Shown here: positions 5,222-60,502 of the stretch, piece after piece
How the letters are laid out: each line of letters starts with the position of its first letter
Numbering within the stretch: the first letter of the stretch is position 1
NCBI GenBank assembly: GCA_964499275.1
Contig: CAZCKO010000003.1
Location: 21,729-85,728 of the forward strand
Reading direction: 5' to 3'
DNA: 64,000 bases
From: an uncultured Rhodospirillaceae bacterium
GTDB lineage: Bacteria > Pseudomonadota > Alphaproteobacteria > MPNO01 > UBA2964
Program-made: the position numbers and the translations under genes
Notes under the pieces: model-generated
Databases searched by the model: none
The model's input: the letters and a program-made list of their open reading frames with translations, nothing else
What the model was told of the DNA's origin: nothing

Positions 5222-5280
5222 GATTACCAGTCTCCAATTTTTCCTTCTTTCAAATGCAATTTCTCAAACTTCAACACCAT

Positions 5281-5386
5281 GGTGGGAGGCTGGACCGATG
5301 ACCCGAGAAAAACTCGTTACGGCTGCTTCCTTCCGGACCTGACCGGGTTGGCGAGGATCCCGTCCATCGCCAACCTCCCAACCCTA
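5281..5386 (-). ncRNA. ffs: signal recognition particle RNA (4.5S RNA); coordinates approximate
   Basis: The minus-strand sequence contains CCCGGTCAGGTCCGGAAGGAAGCAGCC, which matches the universally conserved SRP RNA domain IV. Flanking arms GGTTGGGAGGTTGG and CCAGCCTCCCACC can pair into the terminal helix. It sits directly upstream of dnaX, the classic ffs-dnaX-ybaB-recR synteny. Confidence 0.75.
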
Positions 5387-5475
5387 CTATATCAGGATTT
5401 TGTCTTTCTCCCCAAGACGGTAAACGTTTTTGATACAACATTGCGTCAATAGGTCCTCTATGCGAGGTTAGAATT

Positions 5476-6396
5476 ATGAAATCACCAAACTTTTTTGCAG
5501 AAACTGGCCTAAATCGCATGGCTGAGCGCCGCACTGATTCGGTTTGGATAAGAAAACAGGAAGAAAAGGAAGACGCTGTCGTTCTACCAGTATGGCGAAC
5601 CCGCAATCTTATCAACAACACATCTGGGATCCCACAGCTTGTCCGCCTGAAAATGAAAACAGTCAAAAAAATTGTAGACGAAAACACGCACCTTGTCTTT
5701 CTGGGCTATCGCGGCGATGTCCCATATTTTTCAGTAGATATTTCTTACATAGACGACCCGCAGGCAAACCCCGAACTCAGAGGTATTGGTGATTTTACCG
5801 ATATTAGAGAGGTCAGCCTCGATTTACCGCGAGAAGATGGTGGCCTTCTCGCATATTCTCGGGCCATTGCTCAATGGCATAGAACGCACAAATTTTGCGG
5901 TCGTTGTGGCAGTCCCTCTGTGCCAAGGGATGGGGGACACATGCGCCAATGCACCAACGAAATTTGTAAGTCTCAGCATTTCCCAAGAACCGACATGGCC
6001 GTTATCATGCTTGTAAGTTCAGGTGATAAAATCATTTTAGGACGTAAAAAGGATTGGCCGGAAGATCGCTTCTCTATTCTGGCAGGATTTGTTGAACCAG
6101 GGGAAACCATAGAGAGTGCGGTGGCAAGAGAAGTAATGGAAGAAGTCGGTATACCCATTACAAACATCAAATATCACTCTTCACAGCCTTGGCCCTACCC
6201 TTCCAACCTGATGCTTGGTTTTTTTGCGGAAGCGCTTAGCAATGAAATTCGTATTACTGATGACGAACTTGCGGAGGCGCGTTGGTTTACCCGCGACGAG
6301 CTTATTGATGAAGCAAAGGCTTACAAAAAAAAACCGCATTCGATCTCAATTGCCAGACGCCTAATTGCCGAATGGGCATTAGGAATCGAATATTAG
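5476..6396 (+). CDS. nudC: NAD+ diphosphatase (Nudix hydrolase with zinc ribbon, NudC family)
   Basis: 306 aa. Zinc ribbon CGRCGSP...CTNEICK is followed by a Nudix box (GFVEPGETIESAVAREVMEEVG). Confidence 0.75.
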   Translation: MKSPNFFAETGLNRMAERRTDSVWIRKQEEKEDAVVLPVWRTRNLINNTSGIPQLVRLKMKTVKKIVDENTHLVFLGYRGDVPYFSVDISYIDDPQANPELRGIGDFTDIREVSLDLPREDGGLLAYSRAIAQWHRTHKFCGRCGSPSVPRDGGHMRQCTNEICKSQHFPRTDMAVIMLVSSGDKIILGRKKDWPEDRFSILAGFVEPGETIESAVAREVMEEVGIPITNIKYHSSQPWPYPSNLMLGFFAEALSNEIRITDDELAEARWFTRDELIDEAKAYKKKPHSISIARRLIAEWALGIEY

Positions 6397-54859: not shown

Positions 54860-57106
54860 TCAACGAGAAAATGGCAGGCGGAGGGAACGTAATCGCAAGG
54901 AATTTGTTATAACGAAGACGCTGGAGATACTCATCGCGGCAGCTGCTAACATAGGATTGAGCAACCAACCAAATAGCGGAAAGAAAACCCCGGCCGCGAC
55001 AGGAATTAAGGCGATGTTATATCCGTATGCCCACAAAAAATTATAGCGGATCGTTCGTAAAGTAGCCCGGGCAAGAGTGACAGCTTTGGCGACACTGCGA
55101 ACATCCTCTGACATTAAAACGATTTCAGCAGCTTCGACGGCAACGTCCGTACCAGTACCTATAGCAACACCAGTATTCGCTGTGACCAATGCCGGGGCAT
55201 CGTTTATACCGTCCCCCACAAAAACTACTTTTTGCCCGGCCCTTTGTAACTTTTGAATTTCGTTAGCCTTTTCACCTGGTAAAGTTTCAGCAAATACATC
55301 ATCAATACCCAGATCTGAAGCTATAACATTTGCGGTGACGGCATTGTCACCCGTAATCATGCCAACATTTAAACCAAGCTCCTTTAATGCCGCAACAGTA
55401 CTCTTGCTTTCAGGCCTCACCGCATCCCCTATACCTAAAATTGAGACGGCAACACCTCCTATAGCAGCAAAAACAGGAGTTTTAGCCTGATTTGCCAGAC
55501 CCTCAATGAATTTTTTTGAACCAACTAAATCGACACCCGCCCCCTCTAGGAATTTATTGGTGCCAACCAAAACCAGGCTGCTATCAACAATTGCTGACAC
55601 CCCTTTCCCAGGCACCGCCATGAATTCTGATGCCAAAGGAAGATCGCTATTCTCAGCTCTTGCTGCGTTGACTATCGCACGCGATAAGGGATGCTCACTA
55701 TACTGCTCAACAGCAGCGATTGTAGCCAAATGCGCCCGATCGGCGTCTATACTTTCCCCCGTATTAGGATCTAATAAATCAACCAGCGTGGGTTCACCAA
55801 TTGTCAAAGTACCGGTTTTATCAAAAATGATGGTGTCTGCTTGGCCGAGGCTTTCGAGTGCACTACCACTTCTTATTAAAACCCCATCTTCTACCCCACG
55901 ATACGTCCCAACCATTATCGCGGTGGGCGTTGCGAGGCCCATCGCGCAAGGACAAGCAATTAATAAAACGGAGATTGCCGCCATGAAAGCAAATCCTAAT
56001 GCTGGCGTGCCACTGAGTAACATCCAAAGGATAAAAGTGATTGCGCTCGTCAATATGACCAGCGGAACAAAGATCGATGCAATTTTGTCCGCAAAACGTT
56101 GGACTTTGGTCTTATCATTTTGCGCTTGTTCAACCAGATCCATAATCCGGCGTAAAACAGTATTATTACCTACGCCTGTGGCGCGATAGGTAAAGGCACC
56201 CGTCAGGTTAACGGTACCGGCTATGACCTCGGATCCCTCCTTTTTACTAACCGGGACTGACTCCCCGGTAACCATAGCCTCATTTATCTGGCTTTCCCCT
56301 TCAACTATAACGCCGTCAGCTGCCAACCTTTCTCCAGGCCGAATGACTAATACATCACCGACCCGAAGTTCATGAATTGGTGTTTCATTTTCCGTACCAT
56401 TCTTAACAGTACGCGCGAATTGGGGTTCAAGCTGCAGCAACCCATCAATTGACCTAGAAATTCGCCCACGTGCTAACTCTTCAAGGTAGCGTCCTATCAA
56501 GATAAAGGTAATTATTACAGCTGATGCAACAAAATAAGATTGCGCCGCACCACTCGGGAGTAATTTTGGCCAGAACAGGCCCACAATTGAATAAAAATAA
56601 GCGGCACCAGCACCAATCATCACCAGGCTATTCATGCCCGGATTAAAGTGCCTCAGCTCTACCCACCCTGCTCTTATGAAACGCCTGCCAGCACCGAGAA
56701 CGACTGGCGTAACTAAAGATAATTCAATGAAAGACCATATTTCCTTGGGAAATAGCCCATACATCACATCTGCCAAAGCAGGTATTAAAGGTAGTTTGGC
56801 AATACCTAACAAGGGCAAGGTCAGACAGACTGAAAAAACCACATCTCGTAACAACCCTGCGATTTGTTTCGAATGCTTTGTCTCAGGGCCTTCAAAATCA
56901 GAAACACCATATCCTGCGGCAGAGATTGCCTGTCGAAAGTCCGCATCAGAAGAAACACCTTCTATATAACTTATTGCAGCCCTGCCGGTTGCCAAATTAA
57001 CATTGGCCGTTTCAACACCGGGAACGTTATCGATAACGGACTCGACGCGTGCTACACAACCCGCGCAGGTCATTCCCTCAACTCGTAATACTGTTTGTAC
57101 TGTCAT
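54860..57106 (-). CDS. copA: copper-translocating P1B-type ATPase
   Basis: 748 aa. N-terminal HMA domain GMTCAGC, transmembrane CPC motif, DKTGT phosphorylation site and GDGINDAP. Confidence 0.9.
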   Translation of the reverse strand: MTVQTVLRVEGMTCAGCVARVESVIDNVPGVETANVNLATGRAAISYIEGVSSDADFRQAISAAGYGVSDFEGPETKHSKQIAGLLRDVVFSVCLTLPLLGIAKLPLIPALADVMYGLFPKEIWSFIELSLVTPVVLGAGRRFIRAGWVELRHFNPGMNSLVMIGAGAAYFYSIVGLFWPKLLPSGAAQSYFVASAVIITFILIGRYLEELARGRISRSIDGLLQLEPQFARTVKNGTENETPIHELRVGDVLVIRPGERLAADGVIVEGESQINEAMVTGESVPVSKKEGSEVIAGTVNLTGAFTYRATGVGNNTVLRRIMDLVEQAQNDKTKVQRFADKIASIFVPLVILTSAITFILWMLLSGTPALGFAFMAAISVLLIACPCAMGLATPTAIMVGTYRGVEDGVLIRSGSALESLGQADTIIFDKTGTLTIGEPTLVDLLDPNTGESIDADRAHLATIAAVEQYSEHPLSRAIVNAARAENSDLPLASEFMAVPGKGVSAIVDSSLVLVGTNKFLEGAGVDLVGSKKFIEGLANQAKTPVFAAIGGVAVSILGIGDAVRPESKSTVAALKELGLNVGMITGDNAVTANVIASDLGIDDVFAETLPGEKANEIQKLQRAGQKVVFVGDGINDAPALVTANTGVAIGTGTDVAVEAAEIVLMSEDVRSVAKAVTLARATLRTIRYNFLWAYGYNIALIPVAAGVFFPLFGWLLNPMLAAAAMSISSVFVITNSLRLRSLRLPFSR

Positions 57107-57151: not shown

Positions 57152-58612
57152 GTGTTAAAAAATAACAAACAACGAAATATTTCCATTGTCGGCTGCGGCT
57201 TCGCTGCAATCGCCCTGGGCATATCCCTCAAAAGGTCCGGCTTCAACAACTTCACAATTCTTGAACGTTCGAATGAAATCGGCGGGGTTTGGCGGGAAAA
57301 TACCTACCCAGGCGCTGCTTGCGATGTCCCGTCTCGATTGTATTCGTTTTCCTTTGAGCAAGACTATCCTTGGTCTCTACGCTACGCATCACAAAAAGAG
57401 ATATTTGATTACCTGCAACACTGTTTAGACAAATATAAACTGAGATCGCATATCCGCACAAAAACCGAAGTTTCTCAGGGTTCATATAATGACCAGACAA
57501 ACAGGTGGCACCTGACTTTGTCTGGTGGTGGTGGGATTACCACCGATATATTGATTTCCGCCGTTGGAATTTTCAATAACCCCTTGGTGCCCGAAATCCC
57601 TGGGCAGGACCAATTTGACGGACCACAATTTCACTCCGCCCGATGGGATCCTGATGCCGATTTCAACGGAATGAAGGTTGCCTCAATAGGAACCGGTGCC
57701 AGCGCCATACAATATGTCCCTGAAATAGCGAAGACAGTGGATCAGCTCTATGTATTTCAACGGACACCCCAGCACATCTTTCCAAAGGGTGACCGTGCCA
57801 ACAAACCACAAGGCCCTAGCACCTCTTTAATCCAAAAGCTCTTCAACCGCGAGGAACGTCTTAGACTATTTTATACCTTTGAAAAGAACAGCAGACGACG
57901 GAGTTCAACAAAAAAAACTCGGCAGAGTGCCATCGCTTTTGAAAAATACATACGAGGGATTATTAAGGACCCGGGAATGCTGCATAAAGTTTTGCCGGAC
58001 TACCCACCAGGCTGCAAGCGGGGCCTTCGGTCAGACGATTGGTACCCTACCCTACTTCAATCTCATGTGGATCTTATTGACACCCCCGTCGCTAACCTCA
58101 CAGAGGAAGGAATTCAAACGACAGATGGGAAAGCCTATCCTGCAGATATAATCATCTATGGCACTGGCTTTACCCCAACAAAGTTTTTAACGCCGATGAA
58201 AATAAGCGGCACTAAAGGACGACACCTCAATGAAGAATGGAAAGACGGCGCCGAAGCCTATCTAGGAACGACCGTGACTGGCTTTCCTAATTTTTTCATG
58301 ATGTATGGCCCAAATACCAACTTATCAGGAAGTATCATATATATGCTTGAAAACCAGGCGCGCTACATTACCCAGTGCATTAAGACCTTAGATCAAAAAA
58401 ATGCACGAACGATGTCCGTAAAACAATCAATTCAAAAACGTTATAATGAAATGATAATGGATCAATTATCCAAATCGGTTTTGGTCCATGAAAAATGCCG
58501 AAGTTACTTTCAAACGGAAAATGGCCGGATCACGACCAACTGGCCAGGTCTTATGCTCAACTACCGGTGGCAAACTCGACGCGTAAAAGAATCAGATTAC
58601 GTATTTAACTAA
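57152..58612 (+). CDS. flavin-containing Baeyer-Villiger-type monooxygenase
   Basis: Two dinucleotide-binding motifs (IVGCGFAA, IGTGASA) and the BVMO fingerprint FxGxxxHxxxW (FDGPQFHSARW). The track start TTG 57095 overlaps the copA start; GTG 57152 (MLKNNKQRNISIVGCG) is more plausible. Confidence 0.7.
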   Translation: MLKNNKQRNISIVGCGFAAIALGISLKRSGFNNFTILERSNEIGGVWRENTYPGAACDVPSRLYSFSFEQDYPWSLRYASQKEIFDYLQHCLDKYKLRSHIRTKTEVSQGSYNDQTNRWHLTLSGGGGITTDILISAVGIFNNPLVPEIPGQDQFDGPQFHSARWDPDADFNGMKVASIGTGASAIQYVPEIAKTVDQLYVFQRTPQHIFPKGDRANKPQGPSTSLIQKLFNREERLRLFYTFEKNSRRRSSTKKTRQSAIAFEKYIRGIIKDPGMLHKVLPDYPPGCKRGLRSDDWYPTLLQSHVDLIDTPVANLTEEGIQTTDGKAYPADIIIYGTGFTPTKFLTPMKISGTKGRHLNEEWKDGAEAYLGTTVTGFPNFFMMYGPNTNLSGSIIYMLENQARYITQCIKTLDQKNARTMSVKQSIQKRYNEMIMDQLSKSVLVHEKCRSYFQTENGRITTNWPGLMLNYRWQTRRVKESDYVFN

Positions 58613-58655
58613 ATAAAAGGGGAGCCGACCAACTTAGCGGCCAGCCCCCTCAATA

Positions 58656-59108
58656 TTATGAAAGTCGGTTGAGGTCAGCCAACACCTCGTTTGGATGTTC
58701 AGCCTTGTCGACGACTTCATAGGAAGCCGCAACTTTGCCGTCCGGACTGATTAAAACCGACACCCGGCTGGGCCGGGCAGAATCAGAATCTGCCGCACCG
58801 TAAGCGATAGACATTGATTTTTGTGCATCAGTCAAAAGATCATATGGAAAATCATACTTTTCTTTAAATGCACGGTTGTCGTTCTCTGTGTCGAAACTAA
58901 CACCCAGAATGACAGCATTTTTAGCCTCGAAGTCTTGGATTCTATCACGGAACCCTTGGCCCTCGACCGTTCAGCCAGGCGTATCAGCTCTTGGATACCA
59001 CCAAAGAAGAACATACTTTCCTGCATAAGAAGACAGGGAAACAATGTTTCCATCCTGGTTAGCAAGCTCAAACGCCGGGGCTTCATTACCTACGTCAATT
59101 ACCGACAT
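58656..59108 (-). CDS. Bcp-type peroxiredoxin with in-frame TGA at the peroxidatic Cys position (probable selenocysteine)
   Basis: ATG at 59108 with GGAGAGGG 8 nt upstream. It translates MSVIDVGNEAPAFELANQDGNIVSLSSYAGKYVLLWWYPRADTPG-[TGA]-TVEGQGFRDRIQDFEAKNAVILGVSFDTENDNRAFKEKYDFPYDLLTDAQKSMSIAYGA...NRLS*, 150 aa. Peroxiredoxin/Bcp-like similarity is continuous through the TGA, which sits at the TPGC-T active-site position. Confidence 0.7.
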
Positions 59109-59130
59109 ATTAGCCCTCTCCATAGATTTC

Positions 59131-59144
59131 TGTCACAAGTGACA
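59131..59144. promoter_or_regulatory. perfect 14-bp palindrome TGTCACAAGTGACA in the divergent prx / LLM-monooxygenase intergenic region
   Basis: The dyad TGTCAC-AA-GTGACA lies about 25 bp upstream of the prx ATG. Two further GTCAC copies (GTCACGGGTGTCAC) follow within 40 bp. Confidence 0.3.
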
Positions 59145-59263
59145 CCTTAATTTTATCACCAACGTCACGGGTGTCACCCCGCGTGGGAAAATAAAAATAC
59201 AGTCTATCTTTCTTTCTTGAAATTTTGCTGCAAAATTAATCAATAATTGAAAGGGAGGCAGGC

Positions 59264-60502
59264 TTGCACTCTGCAAAATTCTTTTGCTGGCACTTTATGG
59301 CGTACCCATATCTGCCAGATGACTTTGACAAAAAATATGAGTCTGCATGGGTAACGGTCCCCAACTCACTCTGGGATAGTGAAAAAGCTGATGGCTTATA
59401 CCAGGAATATATCGACCAGCTAGTATATGGTGAGGAGTTGGGTTTTGATGGCTTGGTGCTCAACGAGCATCACCAAAATGTATACGGTTTAATGGCATCA
59501 CCAAACTTAATAGCGGCAGCGCTGAGCCAGCGAACGGAAAGAGCTAAAATTGTCGTTTTAGGCAGCTTGTTGCCACTCCGGAAAAATCCACTCCGTATCG
59601 CTGAAGAGTATGCAATGATAGACATGATGACACACGGCCGCCTGATTGCCGGCTTCGTCGTCGGCGGAGGATCAGAAGCATTTAATTATAATATCACATC
59701 AGTTAAAGCACGTAGCCAATTTTGGGAGGGTTGTGACCTTATCACTCGTGCTTGGACAGAAGATGGCCCCTTTGAGCATGAGGGCGAACATTATCCGCTG
59801 CGTTATGCTAATATATGGCCCAAACCACGCCAAAGCCCCCATCCCCCAGTTTGGATTCCCGGTTCACTCAGCATTGAAACTATGGAGGAATGCGCCAAAC
59901 GTGGATACAACTATTTTTTATCATCGAGGGTCCACGGCTCAGCTACCAAGGCAGCTGTATCACGCTTCACTCAAATTGTTGAGGACCATGGCAGCTCGTA
60001 TCATCCCTACCGGATGGGTGTTTTGCTATCAGTTTATGTAGCGGAAACAGACGAGCAAGCACGTGAAGAAGCAGCAGAAGGCGTTTGGTACTTTTTGAGA
60101 AATTGTCTAAAGGGACATTTGCGGCGCGAGGGACGTACGCAAACTTTTGGGCCTGGTATTCCCTCACAAAGCGTGCGGTCATGGGAAAATTACTTGAAAA
60201 ATTCTGAACCCGGTCGAGATCTATTGGGGGATGCTAAAGACTGGGATACATTAGATGCTGGTGGCTCTATCATAGCTGGAAGTCCGGAAACGGTGCGTCG
60301 CAGACTATTGGAGCTTATAGAACTTGCCGCTGTCGGTAATTTCTTGATCCAGTTTCATTTTGGTAACATGGCGCCAAAATTAGCACGCAAAAGTATGCAC
60401 CTTTTTGCGACAGAAGTTATGCCAGCACTGCGCAGAGAATCTGCAGAACTGTTCGCTAAAAACTTTCCCAATCTAGACGACATTCTAGGGGAAGAACAAT
60501 GA
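59264..60502 (+). CDS. LLM-class flavin-dependent oxidoreductase (luciferase-like monooxygenase)
   Basis: 412 aa TIM-barrel LLM pattern (LVLNEHHQNVYGLMASP...). Confidence 0.8.
   Translation: MHSAKFFCWHFMAYPYLPDDFDKKYESAWVTVPNSLWDSEKADGLYQEYIDQLVYGEELGFDGLVLNEHHQNVYGLMASPNLIAAALSQRTERAKIVVLGSLLPLRKNPLRIAEEYAMIDMMTHGRLIAGFVVGGGSEAFNYNITSVKARSQFWEGCDLITRAWTEDGPFEHEGEHYPLRYANIWPKPRQSPHPPVWIPGSLSIETMEECAKRGYNYFLSSRVHGSATKAAVSRFTQIVEDHGSSYHPYRMGVLLSVYVAETDEQAREEAAEGVWYFLRNCLKGHLRREGRTQTFGPGIPSQSVRSWENYLKNSEPGRDLLGDAKDWDTLDAGGSIIAGSPETVRRRLLELIELAAVGNFLIQFHFGNMAPKLARKSMHLFATEVMPALRRESAELFAKNFPNLDDILGEEQ

What the first reader, a model, noticed from the sequence alone, without database searches (positions are those of the whole stretch)
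58656..59108. Unannotated peroxiredoxin gene with in-frame TGA at the catalytic cysteine: candidate selenoprotein
The six-frame track shows only two spurious ORFs here (58832..59086 on minus, 58821..59150 on plus). A third frame on the minus strand encodes a complete Bcp/thiol-peroxidase-like protein of about 150 aa, with a good RBS (GGAGAGGG) and ATG at 59108. The single in-frame stop is a TGA at about 58971..58973. It falls exactly where the peroxidatic Cys of the conserved (F/W)YP(K/R)xDTPGC-T motif should be: ...WWYPRADTPG[TGA]TVEGQGFRD.... Family-typical sequence continues for 104 residues after it to a TAA stop. A random nonsense mutation landing on the one catalytic codon while both halves stay intact is unlikely. 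A Cys-to-Sec substitution at the redox-active site is the standard pattern for bacterial selenoproteins, and Sec-containing Prx and Prx-like proteins are known from marine bacteria and metagenomes. If real, the host must carry selA/selB/selC/selD elsewhere, and this gene is missed by standard gene callers.
Basis: partly seen in the sequence, partly recalled or inferred. Interest (0 to 1): 0.85.

Follow-up and report, generated by a model that had tools for sequence, protein, structure and literature searches.

The report
Selenocysteine peroxiredoxin gene missed by annotation
This is a real but ordinary gene for a small peroxide-detoxifying enzyme whose catalytic residue is selenocysteine encoded by a TGA "stop" codon; the family has been known from ocean bacteria since 2005, and gene callers routinely truncate it.

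Summary
Window 59108..58656 (minus strand) encodes a 150-aa Bcp/PrxQ-type peroxiredoxin. Its only in-frame stop, TGA 58973..58971, falls on the peroxidatic-Cys position (motif P39-x3-T43-x2-U46, catalytic R115).

The selenoprotein reading is strongly supported:
- 56 of 60 related genome loci (88-47% identity, several phyla, 45-67% GC) carry TGA at this codon with an otherwise intact frame.
- A hairpin 16-34 nt after the TGA, GG(G/A)UUC-CGUGAyn-GAAUCC, is nearly invariant. Synonymous sites are frozen over it (normalised entropy 0.25 against 0.77 elsewhere, p=3e-4), and a lower stem shows compensatory changes.
- True-Cys homologs lack the hairpin. One TGC variant inside the Sec clade still keeps it.
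- TGA ends 16 of 51 other long ORFs in the window, so the genetic code is standard.

Sec machinery (selA, selB, selC, selD) is not present in any DNA I could reach, and I could not test for it in the host genome. One relative's contig does carry a second selenoprotein gene (PrdB-like) whose SECIS loop begins with the same CGUGA.

The family matches the known marine Sec-Prx selenoproteins with a TxxU motif (Sargasso Sea 2005, GOS 2008). It is a new member of a known kind, of modest interest, mainly as an annotation correction.

The parts
58656..59108 (-). Full-length coding sequence of a 150-aa Sec-containing Bcp/PrxQ-type peroxiredoxin (ATG 59108, TAA 58658..58656)
   Evidence: Pfam AhpC-TSA E=7e-34 across the TGA; PDB Bcp homologs such as 3drn at E=8e-24; orthologs in 56 genomes
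58971..58973 (-). UGA codon read as selenocysteine (U46), at the peroxidatic-Cys position of the P-x3-T-x2-C motif
   Evidence: TGA in 56/56 orthologs L001-L056; Cys in distant homologs L057, L058 and the Nitrospina clade; TGC in P0006/L067; aligns with C_P of solved Bcp structures
58927..58966 (-). SECIS-like two-helix stem-loop: lower stem UCGAGG/CUUCGA, internal loop, upper hairpin
   Evidence: MFE of the 49-nt segment is exactly this structure, -12.7 kcal/mol; 93% of cells paired across 51 distinct sequences; C-G<->U-A covariation at columns 9/46
58937..58955 (-). Upper SECIS hairpin GGGUUC-CGUGAUA-GAAUCC (6-bp stem, 7-nt apical loop with G at loop positions 2 and 4); the stem starts 16 nt after the UGA
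   Evidence: 99.3% paired; present in the MFE fold of 52/57 sequences; synonymous sites frozen, with TTC 55/55, CGT 54/56, AGA/CGA only, ATC 55/55; normalised entropy 0.25 vs 0.77, p=3e-4
59114..59121 (-). Shine-Dalgarno-like GGAGAGGG, 5 nt upstream of the ATG
   Evidence: GAGAGGGCTGATATG conserved in close relatives
59150..59177 (-). Promoter-like site: -35 GTGACA, 16-nt spacer, extended -10 TGnTAAAAT
   Evidence: 10 of 12 matches, with TG; GGGTGACA and TGnTAAAnT conserved in 10 relatives. Function is inferred, not shown.
59131..59144 (-). Conserved palindrome TGTCAC-TT-GTGACA between the -10 element and the RBS; candidate operator
   Evidence: Core GTCACTTGTGAC is nearly invariant in 10 relatives (A2). 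The regulator is unknown and was not followed up.
58620..58649 (-). Intrinsic-terminator-like hairpin (12 bp, 8 G-C) followed by a T-run, starting 7 nt after the TAA stop

Best explanation
The locus is a functional, monocistronic gene for a selenocysteine-containing peroxiredoxin of the Bcp/PrxQ subfamily. During translation, UGA at codon 46 would be recoded as Sec by a SelB-GTP-Sec-tRNA(Sec) complex tethered to the SECIS hairpin that begins 16 nt downstream inside the ORF (stem GGGUUC/GAAUCC, loop CGUGAUA). That step is inferred by analogy with the E. coli fdhF mechanism. The product would use the selenolate of U46, activated by T43 and R115, to reduce peroxides to a selenenic acid. The protein contains no cysteine at all, so there is no resolving Cys. 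The oxidised enzyme must therefore be recycled by an external thiol such as thioredoxin, glutaredoxin or a low-molecular-weight thiol, in a '1-Sec' mechanism. Shown here: the gene anatomy, family membership, the Sec/Cys pairing, conservation of the UGA, and RNA-level constraint on the hairpin. Inferred: actual Se incorporation, SelB binding, and the reductant.
For: (1) The ORF and TGA are as described, and the AhpC-TSA profile is matched end to end across the TGA. U46 aligns with the peroxidatic Cys, and R115 with the catalytic Arg, of solved Bcp structures.
(2) TGA is kept at this codon in 56 of 56 orthologous loci at 88-47% identity. These come from Alphaproteobacteria, Woeseiaceae, Latescibacterota and Actinomycetota MAGs with 45-67% GC, and the frame is otherwise intact.
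(3) Sec/Cys pairing: distant homologs have TGC or TGT (L057, L058). Among the 120 best database hits, 58 are true-Cys forms at about 45-50% identity.
(4) The hairpin is nearly invariant and 99% paired, the lower stem shows compensatory changes, and 52 of 57 sequences fold into it on their own.
(5) Synonymous-site entropy is 0.25 over the hairpin against 0.77 elsewhere, p=3e-4. The rare codons CGT and CGA/AGA are retained even in genomes of about 66% GC.
(6) The amino-acid signature RIQ, encoded by the 3' arm of the hairpin, accompanies TGA and is absent from Cys forms. The exception is P0006, which has TGC and still keeps the intact hairpin, consistent with a recent Sec-to-Cys switch.
(7) TGA terminates 16 of 51 long ORFs in the window.
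(8) A conserved promoter-like site, RBS and terminator bracket the full-length ORF.
(9) In relative L013, a second in-frame-TGA gene lies about 2 kb away. It is PrdB-like (TIGR04483, E=1.3e-27) with a UxxC motif and a strong hairpin (z=-2.2) whose loop is CGUGA, the same as the start of the Prx loop.
(10) The literature describes exactly this kind of gene: Sec-Prx with a TxxU motif, COG1225/pfam00578, 43 genes in the Sargasso Sea and 253 in GOS (PMC1088965, PMC2398784).
Against: No selA, selB, selD or tRNA-Sec was found in the window, in the roughly 17 kb of additional scaffold, or in the 3-kb flanks of 60 related loci. This is uninformative rather than negative, because it covers only about 2% of a genome. 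The hairpin's folding energy is not better than that of shuffled sequence (z=-0.38 and -0.54), so the SECIS call rests on comparative evidence. Rfam has no matching family. The lower stem is unpaired in 13% of cells and shifts register in some lineages. The second selenoprotein gene sits in a 69%-identical relative, not in the window's own genome. There is no experimental evidence of Se incorporation.
Confidence: 0.93

Rival explanations
1. The locus is a nonsense-mutated pseudogene, or the TGA is a sequencing or assembly error in an ordinary Cys-Bcp gene.
For: A gene caller stopped at the TGA and reported only a 45-aa stub. TGA is one base away from TGC or TGT.
Against: The same TGA is present in 56 independent genome assemblies down to 47% identity, with no other stop or frameshift apart from one indel-ridden assembly, L016. 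It also appears in dozens of metagenome contigs. There is purifying selection on both halves of the ORF, RNA-level constraint downstream, and an intact promoter-like site, RBS and terminator.
Confidence: 0.01
2. UGA is recoded here, but not to selenocysteine. For example, a tRNA-Sec-like tRNA might insert Cys, or the hairpin might stimulate near-cognate read-through (Trp or Cys), in hosts that lack a full selenium pathway.
For: The Sec machinery was not found in any reachable DNA. One natural TGC variant keeps the hairpin, which shows Cys is tolerated at this site. My own recollection is that SelB-dependent Cys insertion by tRNA-Sec-like tRNAs has been proposed for some bacteria; I did not check this here.
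Against: The architecture matches canonical bacterial Sec recoding: the UGA is at a redox-active Cys site, and an in-ORF stem-loop with a G-containing apical loop lies at the right distance (PMC1088965 criteria). The same family is catalogued as a selenoprotein in marine data sets in which SelD is also abundant (PMC1088965, PMC2398784). A relative carries a second classical selenoprotein gene, PrdB-like, next to its Prx. If Cys were the product, TGC would be simpler, and the strict retention of TGA in 56 lineages would be unexplained.
Confidence: 0.04
3. The organism uses an alternative genetic code in which TGA is a sense codon (Trp in code 4, Gly in code 25), so the residue is Trp or Gly.
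For: 58 database entries for this family read DTPGWT, with W at this position.
Against: Those W residues are artefacts of code-4 gene calling on contigs mostly under 2.5 kb. P0002 even reads through its own terminal TGA as W. In the window TGA ends 16 of 51 long ORFs, and TGG is used 268 times for Trp. Trp or Gly at the peroxidatic position would abolish peroxidase chemistry. The hosts are Alphaproteobacteria and other lineages not known to use code 4 or 25 (established knowledge).
Confidence: 0.005

Closest known systems
Marine Sec-containing peroxiredoxin family ('Prx', TxxU motif, COG1225/pfam00578) of the Sargasso Sea and GOS selenoproteomes (PMC1088965; PMC2398784)
   Same: AhpC/TSA domain, Bcp-type. 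Sec replaces the peroxidatic Cys in a T-x-x-U motif (T-P-G-U here). Bacterial in-ORF SECIS with a G in a small apical loop. Marine bacterial origin. Abundant, and routinely misannotated.
   Different: Nothing substantive that I could test. I could not align directly against the 2005/2008 sequences, so identity of the subfamily rests on the COG/Pfam assignment, the motif and the habitat. Those papers do not describe the near-invariant hairpin or the absence of any Cys. That may simply be detail they did not report.
PrxU, the experimentally shown Sec-peroxiredoxin of Eubacterium acidaminophilum (NCBIfam NF040737 peroxi_PrxU; Sohling et al. 2001, cited in PMC13188914)
   Same: A peroxiredoxin with Sec at the peroxidatic position. 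This is the experimental precedent that Sec works in this fold.
   Different: A different Prx subfamily. The window protein scores 48.9 bits against a 270-bit cut-off, and is 150 aa against a 233-position model. PrxU is a typical 2-Cys-like Prx from an anaerobic Firmicute. This protein is a small Bcp/PrxQ type from aerobic marine Proteobacteria.
Cys-type Bcp/PrxQ thiol peroxidases (E. coli Bcp NF006960; S. solfataricus Bcp1, PDB 3drn; X. campestris Bcp, PDB 5iph; Nitrospina peroxiredoxins P0058-P0120)
   Same: Same fold and active-site constellation (P39, T43, position 46, R115), similar length, 45-50% identity to the Nitrospina clade.
   Different: Sec instead of Cys at C_P. No resolving Cys at C_P+5 or in helix alpha-3, and indeed no Cys anywhere. 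Scores fall below the equivalog cut-offs (98.9 vs 140). The Sec forms carry the RNA-imposed GFRDRIQxF signature, which the Cys forms lack.
E. coli fdhF-type bacterial SECIS / SelB recoding system (established knowledge; summarised in PMC13188914)
   Same: The stem-loop lies inside the ORF immediately 3' of the UGA, has an apical loop with a G-U dinucleotide, and lies at a short fixed distance from the UGA.
   Different: The sequence is unrelated. The loop is 7 nt (CGUGAyn) and no bulged U is evident. The stem starts 16 nt after the UGA. SelB binding has not been tested.

Membership tests
Bacterial selenoprotein gene (SelB/SECIS-dependent UGA recoding) | In-frame UGA at a position occupied by Cys in homologs (Sec/Cys pair) | tested here: met
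   TGA in L001-L056. TGC/TGT in L057 and L058, in 58 Nitrospina-type homologs, and in P0006
Bacterial selenoprotein gene (SelB/SECIS-dependent UGA recoding) | ORF conserved on both sides of the UGA across species | tested here: met
   56 loci at 47-88% identity, each with a single stop in the match
Bacterial selenoprotein gene (SelB/SECIS-dependent UGA recoding) | [quoted passage not shown] | tested here: met
   Hairpin at +16..+34 with loop CGUGAyn; 99% paired; frozen synonymous sites; covarying lower stem. Thermodynamic z-score alone is not significant
Bacterial selenoprotein gene (SelB/SECIS-dependent UGA recoding) | Host genome encodes selA, selB, selC (tRNA-Sec) and selD | not testable with these tools
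   None found in the window, in the scaffold extensions L061 and L065, or in the 60 locus flanks. Indirect support: a second selenoprotein gene beside the ortholog in L013
Bacterial selenoprotein gene (SelB/SECIS-dependent UGA recoding) | Selenium demonstrably incorporated at the UGA position | not testable with these tools
   Needs 75Se labelling or mass spectrometry
Peroxiredoxin, Bcp/PrxQ subfamily | AhpC/TSA thioredoxin-fold domain | tested here: met
   PF00578 at E=7e-34, full-length profile match. Sixteen PDB Bcp/Prx chains at E<1e-10
Peroxiredoxin, Bcp/PrxQ subfamily | Active-site P-x3-T-x2-C(U) motif plus a conserved catalytic Arg | tested here: met
   P39, T43, U46. R115 aligns with the Arg of 3drn and 5iph
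Peroxiredoxin, Bcp/PrxQ subfamily | Score above the NCBIfam equivalog cut-off for Bcp (NF006960) or PrxQ (NF053650) | tested here: not met
   98.9 vs 140 bits and 97.6 vs 260 bits. These are the nearest families, but the protein is not an equivalog of either
Peroxiredoxin, Bcp/PrxQ subfamily | Resolving Cys (C_P+5 or helix alpha-3). This is typical of the subfamily but not universal | tested here: not met
   Zero Cys in the protein. Q51 sits at C_P+5 and K82 at the alpha-3 position, so the protein is functionally of the 1-Cys (1-Sec) type
PrxU (NF040737), the Sec-peroxiredoxin of Eubacterium acidaminophilum | Score at or above the 270-bit equivalog cut-off | tested here: not met
   48.9 bits
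Prx-like / Trx-like UxxC selenoproteins | U-x-x-C redox motif | tested here: not met
   The motif is T-P-G-U-T-V-E, with no Cys
Marine Sec-Prx family (TxxU, COG1225/pfam00578; PMC1088965, PMC2398784) | pfam00578 domain with a TxxU motif and a bacterial SECIS, from marine bacteria | tested here: met
   The hosts are marine MAGs. Direct alignment to the published sequences was not done

The most novel reading that the evidence does not exclude
The genomes that carry this gene lack a canonical SelA/SelB/tRNA-Sec pathway, and the UGA plus its frozen hairpin is decoded in another way, for example by Cys insertion through a tRNA-Sec-like tRNA or by hairpin-driven read-through. That would make this abundant marine 'selenoprotein' family a case of selenium-independent recoding. 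A milder version is more likely: the 19-nt hairpin is unchanged from 45% to 67% GC genomes across at least three phyla and shares its CGUGA loop with an unrelated PrdB-like selenoprotein mRNA, so it could be a portable cross-phylum SelB-recognition module that lets the gene move horizontally.
Probability: 0.03. Interest if true: 0.75.

Novelty: new member of a known kind. Interest (0 to 1): 0.25.

Why it matters
The main value is as an annotation correction. The source assembly records only a 45-aa stub, and public protein databases hold dozens of copies of this family either mistranslated with Trp at the catalytic residue or truncated. Anyone estimating antioxidant capacity or selenium demand in these marine Alphaproteobacteria from such annotations would miss it.

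The comparative data also give a clean, well-supported SECIS consensus for this subfamily: UGA-N15-GGRUUC-CGKGAYN-GAAUCC. This could seed a covariance model, since Rfam has none that matches. The data also show a cysteine-free '1-Sec' Bcp, a simple system for asking how a selenenic acid is recycled without a resolving thiol.

None of this would surprise a selenoprotein specialist.

Tried and rejected
- tRNA-Sec search with ARAGORN found nothing in the window or in the flanks of 56 loci.
- The Rfam gathering scan found only an SRP RNA. The permissive scan of the locus gave only chance-level hits. Rfam evidently has no model for this SECIS.
- Single-sequence folding gave z=-0.38 for 86 nt and -0.54 for 49 nt, so thermodynamics alone cannot support the SECIS.
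- tblastn with E. coli SelA, SelB and SelD against the window and all loci then fetched (L061 and the 60 genome loci) gave no hits. Pfam scans of the ten window ORFs whose sizes would fit SelA, SelB or SelD returned transporters, peptidases, DnaX and similar proteins.
- Extending the scaffold by 10 kb at the window's low-coordinate end (L065) showed only housekeeping genes in the called-gene Pfam table.
- A first coding-potential scan for other TGA-interrupted genes returned nothing because its thresholds were too strict. The redone scan ranked the Prx TGA first. The only other candidate in an unannotated gap (TGA 26833, plus strand) was rejected: no start codon, no redox motif, no family.
- A regex scan for CxxU, UxxC, TxxU and similar motifs was mostly noise, but it did recover the PrdB-like gene in L013.
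- Conserved operon context: synteny with the flavin monooxygenase and Cu-ATPase genes holds only among the closest relatives, so it gives no functional clue.
- DNA for the odd 'W' form P0113, which has a different downstream sequence, could not be fetched.

Full report
OBSERVATION. Reading the minus strand of 58500..59300 and translating 59108..58650 gives a 150-codon frame. It has ATG at 59108, one in-frame TGA at 58973..58971 and TAA at 58658..58656. GGAGAGGG lies at 59121..59114, 5 nt upstream of the ATG. With Cys substituted for the TGA, Pfam AhpC-TSA matches residues 6-128 to profile positions 1-123 of 124 at E=7e-34, so one domain runs straight across the stop. In a window-wide scan for in-frame TGAs with coding-like sequence on both sides, this TGA ranks first. 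The only other candidate in unannotated sequence (26833, plus strand) has no start codon, motif or family and was rejected.

WHAT THE PROTEIN IS. NCBIfam places it closest to Bcp (NF006960, 98.9 bits) and PrxQ (NF053650, 97.6 bits), both below their equivalog cut-offs. It is far from PrxU, the experimentally characterised Sec-peroxiredoxin of Eubacterium acidaminophilum (48.9 bits against a cut-off of 270). Against the PDB, the best matches are Bcp-type peroxiredoxins: S. solfataricus Bcp1 (3drn, E=8e-24) and X. campestris Bcp (5iph and related entries). In those alignments U46 falls on the peroxidatic Cys, T43 on the active-site Thr and R115 on the catalytic Arg. The protein contains no cysteine. 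Position C_P+5 is Gln, and the helix alpha-3 position that holds the resolving Cys in X. campestris Bcp is Lys. It is therefore a Bcp/PrxQ-type enzyme of the 1-Cys, here 1-Sec, functional type.

IS THE TGA REAL AND CONSERVED? One scan of species-representative genomes returned 60 loci. In all 56 loci from 88% down to 47% identity the codon is TGA, and the frame is otherwise intact. One indel-ridden assembly (L016) shows extra stops. The carriers are mostly marine Rhodospirillaceae and other alphaproteobacterial MAGs, but also include Woeseiaceae, Latescibacterota and Actinomycetota MAGs, with contig GC from 45% to 67%. The more distant homologs L057 and L058 have TGC and TGT.

A protein-database search gave the same split. 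Of the 120 best hits, 58 read DTPGWT. These are TGA codons translated under code 4 by metagenome gene callers on short contigs, and P0002 even reads through its terminal TGA as W. Four are C-terminal stubs, and 58 are true-Cys forms at about 45-50% identity, largely the Nitrospina type. The window's own source assembly (ENA ERZ23498701, scaffold_197, 118.8 kb) called only a 45-aa stub ending at the TGA. A pseudogene or a sequencing error is excluded. An alternative genetic code is also excluded, because TGA ends 16 of 51 long ORFs in the window and TGG is the normal Trp codon.

THE SECIS. Aligning the 60 nt from the TGA onward in 57 sequences gives a gap-free alignment (A1). RNAalifold predicts a 6-bp hairpin at columns 19-24/32-37, GG(G/A)UUC-CGKGAYN-GAAUCC. 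Counting pairs for a two-helix model gives 99.3% pairing for the upper stem, with G-U<->A-U variation at one pair. The lower stem (columns 8-13/42-47) is 87% paired, and 12 distinct sequences show the double change C-G to U-A at columns 9/46. The observed covariation score and percentage paired were reached by 0 of 500 shuffles, and they exceed every slid-register control.

The window's 49-nt segment folds into exactly this structure at -12.7 kcal/mol, but this is no better than shuffled sequence (z=-0.54). Thermodynamics alone is therefore not evidence. The upper hairpin is in the MFE fold of 52 of 57 sequences. Some lineages have a lower stem in a shifted register, and the actinobacterial L056 has a different stem (GGCC/GGCC) around the same CGUGA loop sequence.

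The strongest single test is synonymous variation. Over hairpin codons +6 to +11, Phe is TTC in 55 of 55, Arg is CGT in 54 of 56, the second Arg uses only AGA or CGA, and Ile is ATC in 55 of 55. The same amino acids elsewhere in the gene use their codons freely. Normalised synonymous entropy is 0.25 over the hairpin against 0.77 for the 46 other conserved codons (Mann-Whitney p=3e-4). These AT-ending codons persist even in contigs of about 66% GC.

At the protein level, the 3' arm of the hairpin imposes the signature GFRDRIQxF. Essentially all TGA forms have it and the Cys forms lack it. The exception is informative: P0006 (67% identity) has TGC and still carries the intact hairpin, as expected for a recent Sec-to-Cys switch. 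[quoted passage not shown] Rfam has no matching model.

TRANSCRIPTION UNIT. A 12-bp, GC-rich terminator hairpin with a T-run starts 7 nt after the TAA (58649..58620). Upstream there is a promoter-like GTGACA-16 nt-TGnTAAAAT (59177..59150). Its core is conserved in ten close relatives, as is a palindrome TGTCAC-TT-GTGACA (59144..59131) and the RBS. The gene appears to be monocistronic. Its neighbours (a flavin monooxygenase, a Cu-ATPase and a luciferase-like monooxygenase) are shared only with the closest relatives, so context says little about function.

SEC MACHINERY. This is the open point. I found no tRNA in the window or in the locus flanks. tblastn with E. coli SelA, SelB and SelD gave no hit in the window, in L061 or in the 60 loci. 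The gene table of the second scaffold extension, L065, lists only housekeeping genes. Size-matched window ORFs belong to other families. The rest of the genome cannot be reached with these tools.

Indirect support comes from a 69%-identical relative, L013. About 2 kb from its Prx ortholog lies a second in-frame-TGA gene, L013:5955..5017 (minus strand). It is PrdB-like (TIGR04483, E=1.3e-27, with the match spanning the TGA) and has an N-U-P-V-C motif. A strong hairpin follows the TGA (-23.7 kcal/mol, z=-2.2) with apical loop CGUGA, the same sequence that begins the Prx loop. Two unrelated selenoprotein-type genes with the same loop motif on one contig fit a shared SelB. 'PrdB, UxxC' is itself one of the most abundant marine selenoprotein families (PMC1088965, PMC2398784).

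MECHANISM (most likely). SelB carrying Sec-tRNA(Sec) binds the hairpin as the ribosome reaches UGA46 and inserts Sec. This is inferred from the E. coli paradigm. The selenolate of U46, positioned by T43 and R115, reduces a peroxide to give a selenenic acid. With no Cys in the protein, an external thiol partner must regenerate it, which is also an inference. The conserved palindrome at the transcription start suggests repressor control, but this is speculative.

COMPARISON WITH WHAT IS KNOWN. The Sargasso Sea selenoproteome paper lists 'Peroxiredoxin (Prx), COG1225, TxxU' with 43 genes, its second most abundant family (PMC1088965). GOS lists 'Prx, pfam00578, TxxU' with 253 sequences in 34 samples (PMC2398784). 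A 2016 survey counts Sec-Prx in 78 sequenced bacteria (PMC5029168), and the 2026 review lists it among established families (PMC13188914). The window gene has the same domain, motif (T-P-G-U), SECIS type and habitat. It is not PrxU and not a UxxC 'Prx-like' protein. It is therefore a new, unannotated member of a known kind.

VERDICT. The finding is solid but unsurprising. My confidence that this is a bona fide Sec-peroxiredoxin gene is 0.93. The residual doubt comes from the untested Sec machinery and the absence of experimental data. Interest is 0.25.

Noticed in passing
L013:5017-5955 (minus strand; TGA at 5415..5413): A second candidate selenoprotein gene lies about 2 kb from the Prx ortholog in an alphaproteobacterial MAG contig (JASLSL010000072.1). 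It is PrdB-like (TIGR04483, E=1.3e-27) with motif N-U-P-V-C. The hairpin ACCAGAC-CGUGA-GUCUGGU follows the TGA (z=-2.2), and its loop sequence is shared with the Prx SECIS.
   Followed up: partly
window 59131-59144 (minus strand), with 59150-59177: A palindrome TGTCAC-TT-GTGACA sits between a promoter-like -35 GTGACA / TGnTAAAAT and the RBS. The core GTCACTTGTGAC is nearly invariant in 10 relatives although the surrounding sequence diverges. It may be an operator for an unknown regulator. The -35 element itself is another GTGACA half-site.
   Followed up: partly
L067:120-572 (protein P0006): A 67%-identical homolog has TGC (Cys) at the Sec position but retains the intact SECIS hairpin GGGTTC-CGTGATA-GAATCC. 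This looks like a recent Sec-to-Cys conversion, or a variant within a population.
   Followed up: yes
proteins P0001-P0060: 58 public 'full-length' protein entries of this family carry Trp at the catalytic position (DTPGWT), because metagenome gene callers applied genetic code 4 to short contigs. P0002 also reads through its terminal TGA. Four other entries are C-terminal stubs.
   Followed up: yes
L053 (CAXQPB010000187.1, labelled Nitrosopumilus sp. MAG): This contig carries the bacterial-type in-ORF SECIS Prx gene and is 65.8% GC. That is far from the roughly 33-34% GC typical of Nitrosopumilus (my recollection), so the contig is probably misbinned.
   Followed up: partly
L056:3118-3177 (Actinomycetota MAG): This is the only ortholog with a different hairpin stem (GGCC...GGCC, register shifted by one) and a different downstream peptide (GLRDMADAF). 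It keeps the CGUGA loop sequence at the same distance from the TGA.
   Followed up: partly
L016:3001-3451: This ortholog, from a long contig (CALSLP010000002.1), shows five stops or frameshifts in the match while keeping the TGA and the hairpin. The cause is probably indel errors in the assembly rather than decay.
   Followed up: no
window 5282-5378 (minus strand): A bacterial small SRP RNA is present (Rfam RF00169, 65.4 bits). The 138-aa ORF 5271..5687 on the minus strand overlaps it and is probably spurious.
   Followed up: no
window 57095-57106: The mechanical TTG start of the flavin-monooxygenase ORF (57095) overlaps the start of the divergent Cu-ATPase gene (ends 57106). The source assembly calls a shorter, 486-aa product, so the true start is probably downstream.
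   Followed up: no
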